From a virus: a DNA stretch of 25,098 bases. The notes under the pieces are model-generated. The model saw nothing but the letters and a program-made list of their open reading frames with translations. It was not told the origin of the DNA and did no database searches. The position numbers and the translations under genes are program-made. Location of the stretch: the UHGV virus genome UHGV-1632131. One strand, written 5' to 3'. The first letter of the stretch is position 1, and each line of letters starts with the position of its first letter. Shown piece by piece: positions 21,077-21,312 of this stretch.

Positions 21077-21208
21077 ATGGTGCTCAAGCTGTCCGTGCTG
21101 GTGGATTTCACCAGCACAATCCTGTCGGTTTTATCGGACGGGGCGTTGGTGGCAGTAGCCGTAACATTGGTATGGCCGATATTTAAAATAGCTTCGAAGG
21201 ATCAGTGA
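21077..21208 (+). CDS. candidate small hydrophobic membrane peptide (43 aa)
   Basis: ATG at 21077 inside track ORF 21005..21208, with GGAGAG 8 nt upstream; MVLKLSVLVDFTSTILSVLSDGALVAVAVTLVWPIFKIASKDQ is largely one transmembrane helix; stop overlaps the next start (TGATG). Confidence 0.35.
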   Translation: MVLKLSVLVDFTSTILSVLSDGALVAVAVTLVWPIFKIASKDQ

Positions 21209-21312
21209 TGGGATTCTGGGATTTTGCTGACAAGTATCCAATTGTTCTCATTATTATTGTTGCCATAGTTGTAGGCGGCATTGTTAGCGCCATTGAAGCA
21301 CTTAGTAAATAG
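21208..21312 (+). CDS. candidate small hydrophobic membrane peptide (34 aa), absent from the ORF track
   Basis: ATG at 21208 with AAGGA Shine-Dalgarno 7 nt upstream (21196-21200); MGFWDFADKYPIVLIIIVAIVVGGIVSAIEALSK; TAG stop at 21310-21312, 6 nt before tRNA-Ile2. Confidence 0.4.
   Translation: MGFWDFADKYPIVLIIIVAIVVGGIVSAIEALSK

What the first reader, a model, noticed from the sequence alone, without database searches (positions are those of the whole stretch)
21077..21312. Two translationally coupled tiny hydrophobic peptide genes inside the RNA locus, one missing from the ORF track
A 43-codon ORF (ATG 21077) and a 34-codon ORF (ATG 21208, Shine-Dalgarno AAGGA) overlap by TGATG and each encode essentially one transmembrane helix (LSVLVDFTSTILSVLSDGALVAVAVTLVWPIF; YPIVLIIIVAIVVGGIVSAIEAL). 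They sit between element E4 and tRNA-Ile2. Small single-helix peptides in phage accessory loci are commonly type I toxin-like, holin- or antiholin-like, or superinfection-exclusion factors, and type I toxins are classically controlled by adjacent structured or antisense RNAs, which abound here.
Basis: partly seen in the sequence, partly recalled or inferred. Interest (0 to 1): 0.5.

Follow-up and report, generated by a model that had tools for sequence, protein, structure and literature searches.

The report
Truncated P1 tciB plus tciC genes
The two tiny hydrophobic ORFs are the already-annotated phage P1 genes tciB and tciC, left behind here by an 807-bp deletion that removed their partner gene tciA and fused tciB to a fragment of a tRNA gene, so this is an ordinary gene remnant and not a new toxin system.

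Summary
In detail: ATG21077-TGA21208 (43 codons) and ATG21208-TAG21312 (34 codons) overlap in TGATG, with AAGGA 6 nt upstream of the second ATG. The window is a P1-like phage-plasmid, and the ORFs are P1 tciB (Pfam DUF3927, E=1.5e-21) and tciC (PHROG 23152, E=2.7e-23), annotated since 2004 and non-essential in a P1 CRISPRi screen.

New here: this tciB is a chimera. Bases 21063-21089 are the first 27 nt of a tRNA-Ser(UGA) gene. Its acceptor stem supplies the "GGAG" and its D-loop supplies the ATG. The fusion joins tciB at codon 16, and 807 bp present in a 99.5%-identical relative are missing (rest of tRNA-Ser, one hairpin, TerB-family tciA, tciB codons 1-15). In all 90 other P1-type loci examined, tciA-tciB-tciC are joined by 1-nt overlaps. 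The junction occurs in only 4 of 72,556 plasmids, all Shigella dysenteriae.

tciB shows a clear coding signature (16 of 21 variable sites at codon position 3). The coding evidence for tciC is weaker.

I found no type I toxin family match, no antisense promoter or sRNA, and no complementarity beyond chance. The neighbouring hairpins are same-strand elements that also occur in phage lambda.

Best reading: orphaned small membrane partners of a TerB-type module. Interest is low.

The parts
21063..21089 (+). 5' fragment (27 nt: acceptor-stem 5' strand plus D-arm) of a tRNA-Ser(UGA) gene. It provides GGAG(AG) at 21063-21068 and ATG at 21077.
   Evidence: Identical 27/27 to the start of tRNA-Ser in CMS-2020a (L002 4145-4231). 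The intact tRNA-Ser is called by ARAGORN in L015, L002 and L064. RefSeq annotates tRNA-Ser under the left half of the junction query.
21088..21089 (+). Deletion junction: a 2-nt GC overlap inside an imperfect microhomology (CTCaaGC / CTCttGC).
   Evidence: The left parent is identical through 21089 and the right parent (type-2 tciB) is identical back to 21088. The 99.5%-identical relative L016 carries 807 extra bp here.
21077..21208 (+). tciB' : a 43-codon chimeric ORF encoding MVLK followed by TciB residues 16-54. It is a DUF3927 core lacking profile positions 1-12.
   Evidence: Pfam PF13064 E=1.5e-21, profile positions 13-53 of 53. PHROG 1470. P1 TciB is 54 aa. Of 21 variable sites, 16 are at codon position 3 and pN/pS is 0-0.37.
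21197..21201 (+). AAGGA Shine-Dalgarno sequence for tciC, 6 nt before its ATG.
   Evidence: Read from the sequence. The AAGGA(T/A)CAGTGATG junction is conserved in all P1-type loci.
21208..21312 (+). tciC: a 34-codon ORF with one hydrophobic stretch of 20 uncharged residues. It is one codon shorter than P1 TciC (CAG to TAG).
   Evidence: PHROG 23152 E=2.7e-23. P1 tciC annotation. The ORF is open with no indels in 27 haplotypes. It forms a single cluster among 1.84e9 representative proteins.
21319..21394 (+). tRNA with CAT anticodon (tRNA-Ile2 / ileX-like in the P1 annotation), the conserved downstream neighbour.
   Evidence: ARAGORN and Rfam. P1 trnI annotation.
20863..20934 (+). It is context only and not part of the peptide genes.
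   Evidence: Fold z-score -3.4. It is 97.4% identical to lambda 44786-44862.

Best explanation
Shown. The two ORFs are the phage P1 genes tciB and tciC in a P1-like phage-plasmid. In the normal arrangement a TerB-domain protein gene (tciA, 141-144 aa), tciB (54 aa, DUF3927) and tciC (35 aa) form a chain joined by 1-nt stop/start overlaps. They sit between tRNA genes in the variable accessory region upstream of ban. In this lineage an illegitimate recombination at a CTCaaGC/CTCttGC microhomology deleted 807 bp: the 3' 60 nt of a tRNA-Ser gene, one hairpin element, all of tciA and tciB codons 1-15. The break happens to be in frame, so the tRNA fragment now provides GGAG-N10-ATG and four new codons (MVLK) in front of TciB residues 16-54. 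tciC and its own AAGGA are untouched.

Inferred. TciB and TciC are small inner-membrane peptides that act as membrane partners or anchors of the soluble TerB-domain protein TciA. This would be a split version of the membrane-tethered TerB-like architecture. They are not autonomous membrane toxins. With tciA gone and the most hydrophobic N-terminal segment of TciB lost, the pair in this window is most likely a recent, functionally orphaned remnant. It may still be translated at some level.
For: Identity: 92-94% DNA identity to tciB-tciC-trnI of P1, P7 and SJ46; the P1 annotation; Pfam and PHROG matches.

Chimera: alignment to relatives in which the same bases read ATGGTGCTCAAGCGGTCTTGA inside a tRNA-Ser gene; exact junction mapping. 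L016 is 99.5% identical on both flanks and carries tRNA-Ser, a hairpin, tciA, tciB(54) and the same 34-aa length of tciC.

Rarity: the junction occurs in 4 of 72,556 plasmids (all S. dysenteriae) and in 0 of 5,426 complete E. coli genomes, while each half occurs in hundreds.

Coupling to TerB: all 90 other P1-type loci have a TerB-like gene directly upstream, and the stop/start overlap is TGATG or TAATG in the loci read. The two tciA alleles are only 31% identical to each other, yet both match Pfam TerB. A distant clade (52% identity, L066/L068) keeps TerB plus DUF3927 overlapping, without tciC. A paper's figure legend lists DUF3927 next to tellurite/colicin resistance in pSLy3-type phage-plasmids (PMC9600943).

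Coding: the tciB core has 16 of 21 variable sites at codon position 3 and pN/pS 0-0.37. There are no indels in tciB or tciC, against 18 of 202 gap columns in the adjacent non-coding DNA. The invariant polar motif LVDFTSTILSxLSDG is kept across 50%-divergent homologues, which suggests a specific interaction and not generic membrane damage.

Dispensability and decay: tciA, tciB and tciC are non-essential in P1 CRISPRi (PMC10695390). tciABC is a variable region lost in about half of P1 subgroup-1 elements (PMC9603915). Plasmid CP091837 has a different deletion (window 20709-21170) that destroys tciB but leaves tciC.
Against: There are no expression or interaction data for any Tci protein, so the TciA-TciB-TciC complex is inferred from synteny and from general knowledge of TerB-like domains.

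The coding signature of tciC is weak. Variable sites fall 9/8/11 across codon positions. pN/pS is 0.55-0.9 between the two allele classes. Two antisense frames are also open. The conservative-substitution test was not significant.

TciB' keeps the invariant core, an in-frame ATG and a usable GGAG, and the allele is present in several isolates and one metagenome contig. Residual or new function is therefore not excluded.

The predicted fold around the new start partly pairs the GGAG, but it is no more stable than shuffles (z=-1.0), so translation efficiency is unknown.
Confidence: 0.75

Rival explanations
1. Type I toxin-antitoxin-like module. One or both peptides would be membrane-depolarising toxins kept silent by an antisense or structured RNA encoded nearby.
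For: Size and hydrophobicity fit the class. TciC has 20 uncharged residues flanked by charged ends. Many stable RNA hairpins lie nearby.
Against: - No match to any toxin family in Pfam or NCBIfam at E<=1.
- No Rfam antitoxin sRNA at E<=5.
- No minus-strand promoter-like site across the genes.
- Complementarity to the rest of the window is 12-13 nt, equal to the shuffle range.
- All hairpins are on the same strand and recur in lambda and in more than 120 other phage contigs that were not found to carry tciBC.
- In 90 of 93 loci the genes sit directly behind a TerB gene, joined by 1-nt stop/start overlaps where read, which is unlike autonomous type I loci.
- The invariant polar core of TciB is atypical for such toxins.
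Confidence: 0.05
2. Holin, antiholin, superinfection-exclusion or defence/anti-defence membrane factor acting on its own or with TciA. TerB-containing ter operons have been linked to phage inhibition and colicin resistance.
For: The locus is a hot spot for accessory genes. A Tad2-like anti-Thoeris ORF lies 600 bp downstream, and tciABC is one of eight hypervariable regions of P1-like elements. The historical tci name (tellurite, colicin, inhibition of cell division) comes from TerB homology.
Against: There are no PADLOC, holin or exclusion-family hits. The genes are not next to a lysis cassette. They are non-essential for P1 plaque formation. In this window the TerB partner is deleted, so any TerB-dependent activity is gone.
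Confidence: 0.12
3. Dead remnant. tciB' is not translated because its start is an accident of a tRNA fragment, and tciC, deprived of coupling, is silent too. On this reading tciC may never have been a real gene.
For: - The start and GGAG derive from a tRNA gene, and the GGAG-to-ATG spacer is a long 10 nt.
- tciC lacks a third-position excess and has pN/pS up to 0.9.
- tciC is absent from the distant TerB-DUF3927 clade.
- PGAP does not call tciC.
- A further deletion exists in CP091837.
Against: The tciC ATG overlap and AAGGA are conserved in all P1-type loci, and there are no indels in 102 nt across 43 haplotypes. Within allele classes pN/pS is 0-0.19. The fusion is in frame with a plausible ribosome-binding site.
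Confidence: 0.25

Closest known systems
Phage P1 TciB (YP_006541; Pfam DUF3927 / PHROG 1470)
   Same: The 39 C-terminal residues differ from P1 TciB at 2 positions. The TGATG junction to tciC and the position upstream of tRNA-Ile2 and ban are the same.
   Different: The protein is 43 aa, not 54. The first 15 residues, which include the most hydrophobic segment, are replaced by MVLK encoded by a tRNA-Ser fragment. There is no tciA upstream.
Phage P1 TciC (YP_006542; PHROG 23152)
   Same: Same position, same overlap, same conserved ends (MGFWDFADK...IEAL) and a single hydrophobic helix.
   Different: It is 73.5% identical to the P1 allele and belongs to the second allele class (YPIVLIIIVAIVVGGIVSAI). 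It is one residue shorter through a CAG-to-TAG change.
TerB-family modules (ter operon TerB; membrane-tethered TerB-like domains such as DUF533/YebE and DjlA; the architectures are from general knowledge)
   Same: In relatives the peptides are co-encoded with a TerB-domain protein, TciA (Pfam TerB, with weak DUF533 similarity). A soluble TerB domain plus small TM peptides would mimic the tethered architecture.
   Different: There is no TerC, TerD or TerZ here. The TerB gene is deleted in this window. The association of TciA with TciB or TciC is inferred, not shown.
Type I toxins (Hok, Ldr, TisB, Ibs, ShoB, Zor, DinQ, Fst)
   Same: Small size and one hydrophobic helix.
   Different: There is no family match, no antisense RNA and no autonomous transcription unit. 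In relatives the genes are coupled to an upstream protein gene.
Small membrane-protein subunits of larger complexes (for example KdpF, AcrZ, CydX; from general knowledge)
   Same: They are peptides of 30-55 aa, encoded in an operon with, and probably acting through, a larger partner.
   Different: The partner here is a soluble TerB-domain protein of unknown function. No biochemical evidence exists.

Membership tests
P1 TciB / DUF3927 (PF13064) | Match to the family HMM above the gathering score | tested here: met
   76.5 bits against a cut-off of 25, E=1.5e-21.
P1 TciB / DUF3927 (PF13064) | Full-length domain (53 profile positions, about 54 aa) including the N-terminal K/R plus hydrophobic segment | tested here: not met
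   Only profile positions 13-53 are matched. Residues 1-15 are replaced by MVLK.
P1 TciB / DUF3927 (PF13064) | Directly downstream of, and overlapping, a TerB-domain gene (tciA) | tested here: not met
   There is no TerB-like ORF within 900 nt upstream in the window, L003 or L080. One is present in all 90 other P1-type loci and in L066/L068.
P1 TciC (PHROG 23152) | Full-length HMM match, start overlapping the tciB stop, followed by tRNA(CAT) | tested here: met
   E=2.7e-23 over positions 1-34 of 35. TGATG overlap. tRNA at 21319-21394.
P1 TciC (PHROG 23152) | Evolves as a protein-coding sequence | tested here: inconclusive
   No indels and the ORF is open in all haplotypes. However, variable sites fall 9/8/11 by codon position, pN/pS is 0.55-0.9 between allele classes, and antisense frames are also open.
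Type I toxin-antitoxin system | Toxin belongs to a described toxin family | tested here: not met
   No toxin family in Pfam or NCBIfam at E<=1.
Type I toxin-antitoxin system | Cis- or trans-encoded antisense RNA antitoxin | tested here: not met
   No Rfam sRNA. No minus-strand promoter-like site over the genes. Complementarity is 12-13 nt against a shuffle maximum of 14-15. This is in silico only.
Type I toxin-antitoxin system | Autonomous toxin transcription and translation unit | tested here: not met
   In 90 of 93 loci the genes lie directly behind tciA, with a 1-nt stop/start overlap where the junction was read.
Type I toxin-antitoxin system | Toxicity or membrane depolarisation on expression | not testable with these tools
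   This requires an experiment.
Holin/antiholin | Holin family match and location in a lysis cassette with an endolysin | tested here: not met
   No holin hit in Pfam or PHROGs. The neighbours are tRNAs, hairpins, a Tad2-like ORF and ban.
Known anti-phage defence systems (PADLOC) | HMM match of any component | tested here: not met
   No hits for TciB', TciC or P1 TciA.

The most novel reading that the evidence does not exclude
After the loss of tciA, the chimeric TciB' (with its start recruited from a tRNA-Ser gene fragment) and TciC are retained because together they act autonomously as a two-peptide membrane effector. This could be an exclusion, toxin-like or envelope-modulating factor, expressed from the tRNA/hairpin transcript.
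Probability: 0.06. Interest if true: 0.45.

Novelty: already known. Interest (0 to 1): 0.15.

Why it matters
The main value is as a correction: the ORFs are not a new toxin locus but P1 tciB and tciC, and one of them is a deletion chimera. There are two minor points of wider use.

First, the strict TerB-DUF3927(-TciC) coupling gives a testable idea for the function of the 20-year-old orphan tciABC operon: small membrane partners of a TerB domain. The S. dysenteriae-type allele is a natural tciA deletion for such tests.

Second, this is a clean example of a tRNA gene fragment supplying a ribosome-binding site and start codon to a truncated gene.

The neighbouring conserved-arm hairpin family, which is shared with lambda, is potentially more interesting than the peptides themselves.

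Tried and rejected
I used tblastn on the phage collection and the 1.84e9-representative HMMER search in its place. Only one TciC cluster exists.
- A genome-contig scan with TciB found nothing. A search with the distant DUF3927 (L066) returned only itself, so the family is narrow.
- The test of whether tciC substitutions are more conservative than chance was not significant (9 of 10 against an expected 75-88%), so it is not used as evidence.
- ORF openness does not discriminate for tciC because antisense frames are also open.
- AlphaFold2 on TciB' and on full-length TciB gave only one long helix, which is uninformative about topology or partners. No fold search was attempted on a single helix.
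- The idea that PGAP's "MW1434 family type I TA system toxin" label supports the toxin reading is rejected. The label belongs to the 191-aa Tad2-like ORF.
- The idea that ORF1 is an internal in-frame deletion of P1-type TciB (MVIK... against MVLK...) is rejected. The 27 upstream nucleotides, including ATGGTGCTCAAGC, are tRNA-Ser sequence.
- The Lobocka 2004 P1 genome paper is not held.
- Text searches for the hairpin arm sequences found no paper.

Full report
**Observation.**

Reading the window confirms both ORFs. The first runs from ATG 21077 through 43 codons to TGA 21206-21208. The second starts at ATG 21208, which shares its A with that stop (TGATG), and runs 34 codons to TAG 21310-21312. 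AAGGA at 21197-21201 lies 6 nt upstream of the second ATG. ARAGORN and Rfam place tRNAs at 20205-20279 (Asn), 20282-20357 (Thr) and 21319-21394 (CAT anticodon). ORFs of this length are frequent by chance (55 ORFs of at least 20 aa in 2.5 kb), so the case rests on homology.

**Identity.**

The segment 21088-21444 is 92-94% identical to tciB-tciC-trnI of phages SJ46, P7 and P1. The wider region is 99.2% identical to roughly 80-kb P1-like plasmids of Shigella dysenteriae.

- In P1 the annotation is tciA (TerB homologue), tciB (54 aa), tciC (35 aa) and trnI (tRNA-Ile2, CAT), then ban. All of these lie downstream of the C1-controlled ban promoter, a dicF-like region and tRNA-Asn/Thr.
- ORF1 matches Pfam DUF3927 (76.5 bits, cut-off 25) and PHROG 1470, "TciB-like". 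ORF2 matches PHROG 23152 at E=2.7e-23.
- TciC forms a single cluster among 1.84 billion representative proteins.
- In the literature, a genome-wide CRISPRi screen of P1 scores tciA, tciB and tciC as non-essential (PMC10695390).
- tciABC is one of eight hypervariable regions of P1-like phage-plasmids and is lost in about half of subgroup 1 (PMC9603915).

**ORF1 is a chimera.**

The Pfam match covers only profile positions 13-53, whereas P1 TciB is 54 aa.

- Against P1, window 19716-20879 and 21088-21579 align, but the interval between them does not.
- In relatives L015, L064 and CMS-2020a, the bases that here read GGAGAGTAGGGAGCATGGTGCTCAAGC continue as ...GGTCTTGAAA.... ARAGORN calls these an 87-nt tRNA-Ser(UGA) gene. 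RefSeq also annotates tRNA-Ser under that half of the junction.
- Exact mapping shows the tRNA-Ser parent identical through 21089 and the type-2 tciB parent (...CTCTTGCTGTCC...) identical back to 21088. That is a 2-nt overlap inside the imperfect repeat CTCaaGC/CTCttGC.
- The "Shine-Dalgarno" GGAG is therefore the 5' strand of a tRNA acceptor stem and the ATG lies in its D-loop. The protein is MVLK followed by TciB residues 16-54.
- L016 (an IMG/VR contig) is 99.5% identical on both flanks. It carries tRNA-Ser, a hairpin, a 144-aa TerB gene, a 54-aa tciB and a tciC of the same 34-aa length. The window lacks 807 bp relative to it.
- The junction is present in 4 of 72,556 PLSDB plasmids, all S. 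dysenteriae. It is absent from 5,426 complete E. coli genomes, while each half occurs in hundreds of records. It also occurs in one metagenome contig (L080) and one ENA protein (P0002).

**Comparative evidence.**

Among 93 P1-type loci, 90 have a TerB-like tciA directly upstream of tciB, with a 1-nt stop/start overlap (TGATG or TAATG) in the loci read. tciC follows tciB through a 1-nt TGATG overlap in the loci checked.

- There are two tciA alleles only 31% identical to each other, and both match Pfam TerB. Each comes with its own TciB N-terminus (MVIKARLILALVFLV or MASKARIAIAIGFLL). From LSVLVDF onward, TciB is almost invariant.
- A distant clade (L066/L068, 52% identity) keeps an overlapping TerB plus DUF3927 pair but has no tciC.
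- A figure legend on pSLy3-type phage-plasmids also lists DUF3927 next to a tellurite/colicin-resistance gene (PMC9600943).
- tciB shows clear purifying selection: 16 of 21 variable sites are at codon position 3, and pN/pS is 0-0.37.
- tciC is less clear. It has two allele classes differing by 9 replacements, all among I/V/A/G/S plus H/Y, against 3-5 silent changes (pN/pS 0.55-0.9). Within classes pN/pS is 0-0.19.
- tciC variable sites fall 9/8/11 across codon positions, two antisense frames are also open, and a test for conservative replacement was not significant.
- In favour of tciC coding: the overlap and AAGGA are invariant, and there are no indels in 102 nt across 43 haplotypes. The adjacent non-coding DNA has 18 of 202 gap-containing columns.
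- A few singleton frameshifted TciB variants exist in the protein database (P0007, P0009-P0011).

**Physical properties.**

In full-length TciB the most hydrophobic stretch is residues 7-20 (Kyte-Doolittle 11-residue window up to 3.3). This stretch is deleted here. What remains is moderately hydrophobic and contains D10 and D21. AlphaFold2 predicts one uninterrupted helix for both forms: residues 2-42 at pLDDT 84, and residues 2-47 at pLDDT 87.5. This does not resolve topology. TciC has a 20-residue uncharged core between charged ends. The invariant polar motif LVDFTSTILSxLSDG across 50%-divergent homologues points to a specific helix-helix or ligand contact.

**Test of the toxin and antisense idea.**

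- There is no type I toxin, holin or defence family hit in Pfam, NCBIfam, PHROGs or PADLOC.
- There is no Rfam sRNA at E<=5 in 19800-22000.
- No minus-strand promoter-like site lies over the genes, and the overall counts of promoter- and terminator-like sites are near shuffle expectation.
- The longest complementarity between 21040-21320 and the rest of the window is 12 nt (other + strand RNAs) or 13 nt (minus-strand RNAs). Shuffle means are about 11 and shuffle maxima are 14-15.
- The nearby structured RNAs are all on the + strand.
- The "MW1434 family type I TA system toxin" label seen in related plasmids is attached to the 191-aa ORF at 21924-22499, which carries a Tad2-like anti-Thoeris domain.

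**Mechanism.**

Shown:

- gene identity;
- the deletion chimera;
- the near-universal coupling to a TerB gene;
- dispensability.

Inferred: TciB and TciC are small inner-membrane partners of the soluble TerB-domain protein TciA. TerB-like domains are commonly membrane-tethered (for example DUF533/YebE and DjlA, from general knowledge), and type-2 TciA shows weak DUF533 similarity. With tciA and the TciB N-terminus gone, the pair is most likely an orphaned remnant. The different deletion in plasmid CP091837 removes most of tciB but leaves tciC. Complete absence of tciABC in CMS-2020a-type elements fits a decay series. Residual translation is possible: there is GGAG-N10-ATG, tciC has its own AAGGA, and the local fold is no more stable than shuffles.

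**Verdict.**

The genes are already known (P1 tciB and tciC, function still unknown). The only new element is the lineage-specific tRNA-Ser'::'tciB fusion. Interest is low.

Noticed in passing
window 19339-19404, 19927-20005, 20361-20443, 20582-20681, 20863-20934, 21579-21683 (+ strand): There is a family of very stable hairpins (fold z-scores -1.9 to -6.5). The arms are conserved, (C)ACAAC-A-GGTAAGRGCATTG ... CAGTGCTCTTTCC-GTTGTGG. The apical 40-60 nt are hypervariable and often contain a tRNA T-arm-like GGTTCGAATCC. A small hairpin, TGAATGCGCAGGCTGATGCGC, usually follows. In 99 distinct copies the 13 bp above the AAC/GTT base pair at 93-100%, apart from one position, with compensatory changes. 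That position is a conserved U.U mismatch (92 of 99 copies), and there is also a bulged A. No Rfam family matches and no paper contains the arm sequences.
   Followed up: partly
window 20860-20936; lambda NC_001416 44786-44862 (L217 701-777): Hairpin E4 is 97.4% identical to a sequence in phage lambda. That sequence lies immediately after a stem plus T-run that I take to be tR', in the late leader between Q and S, and it overlaps the annotated orf-64. Similar copies occur in Klebsiella, Shigella, Salmonella and Erwinia phages of unrelated types. About 20% of copies follow a terminator-like T-run, and others follow a tRNA 3' end or a CTCCACGAAACGGAG hairpin.
   Followed up: partly
window 20591, 20879, 21579: Mosaic breakpoints between this window and P1, L016 or CMS-2020a fall inside the conserved hairpin arms or at the ACAAC motif. 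This suggests the arms act as recombination linkers for exchanging tRNA and gene cassettes.
   Followed up: no
window 20358-20879 (- strand); P1 L001 2771-3340: The P1 CDSs plp ("putative lipoprotein", which overlaps trnT by 30 nt) and upl lie antisense to the region homologous to the hairpin array. In the window the corresponding minus-strand ORFs are broken into pieces of 81, 49 and 47 aa. These P1 CDSs are therefore probably spurious.
   Followed up: partly
window 21924-22499 (+): This 191-aa ORF has a C-terminal Tad2-like (anti-Thoeris sponge) domain, PF11195, E=6.9e-11. RefSeq/PGAP nevertheless names it "MW1434 family type I TA system toxin". It is absent from P1 at this position.
   Followed up: partly
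window 23002-23394 (+): This 130-aa ORF, immediately upstream of the ban-like helicase ORF (23391-24755, 454 aa), matches the P1 late-promoter activator family Lpa (PF25716, E=6e-48). RefSeq labels the helicase-position ORF "DNA pacase A subunit" in the Shigella plasmid.
   Followed up: no
L015 1862-1996: In this relative the tRNA-Thr gene appears to be interrupted by an insertion of about 60 nt after the anticodon-stem region. ARAGORN no longer calls it.
   Followed up: no
L218 (E. coli plasmid CP091837) versus window 20709-21170: An independent 462-bp deletion removes hairpin E4, the tRNA-Ser fragment and the first 31 codons of tciB', while keeping tciC and tRNA(CAT).
   Followed up: yes
window 19621-19736 (+): A perfect 17-bp hairpin (19621-19699) is followed by a strong intrinsic terminator-like site (19719-19736 plus a T7 run). 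Together they correspond to the end of P1's annotated "dicF-like region". The downstream tRNAs and tciB'/tciC must therefore be expressed by read-through or from an unrecognised promoter.
   Followed up: no
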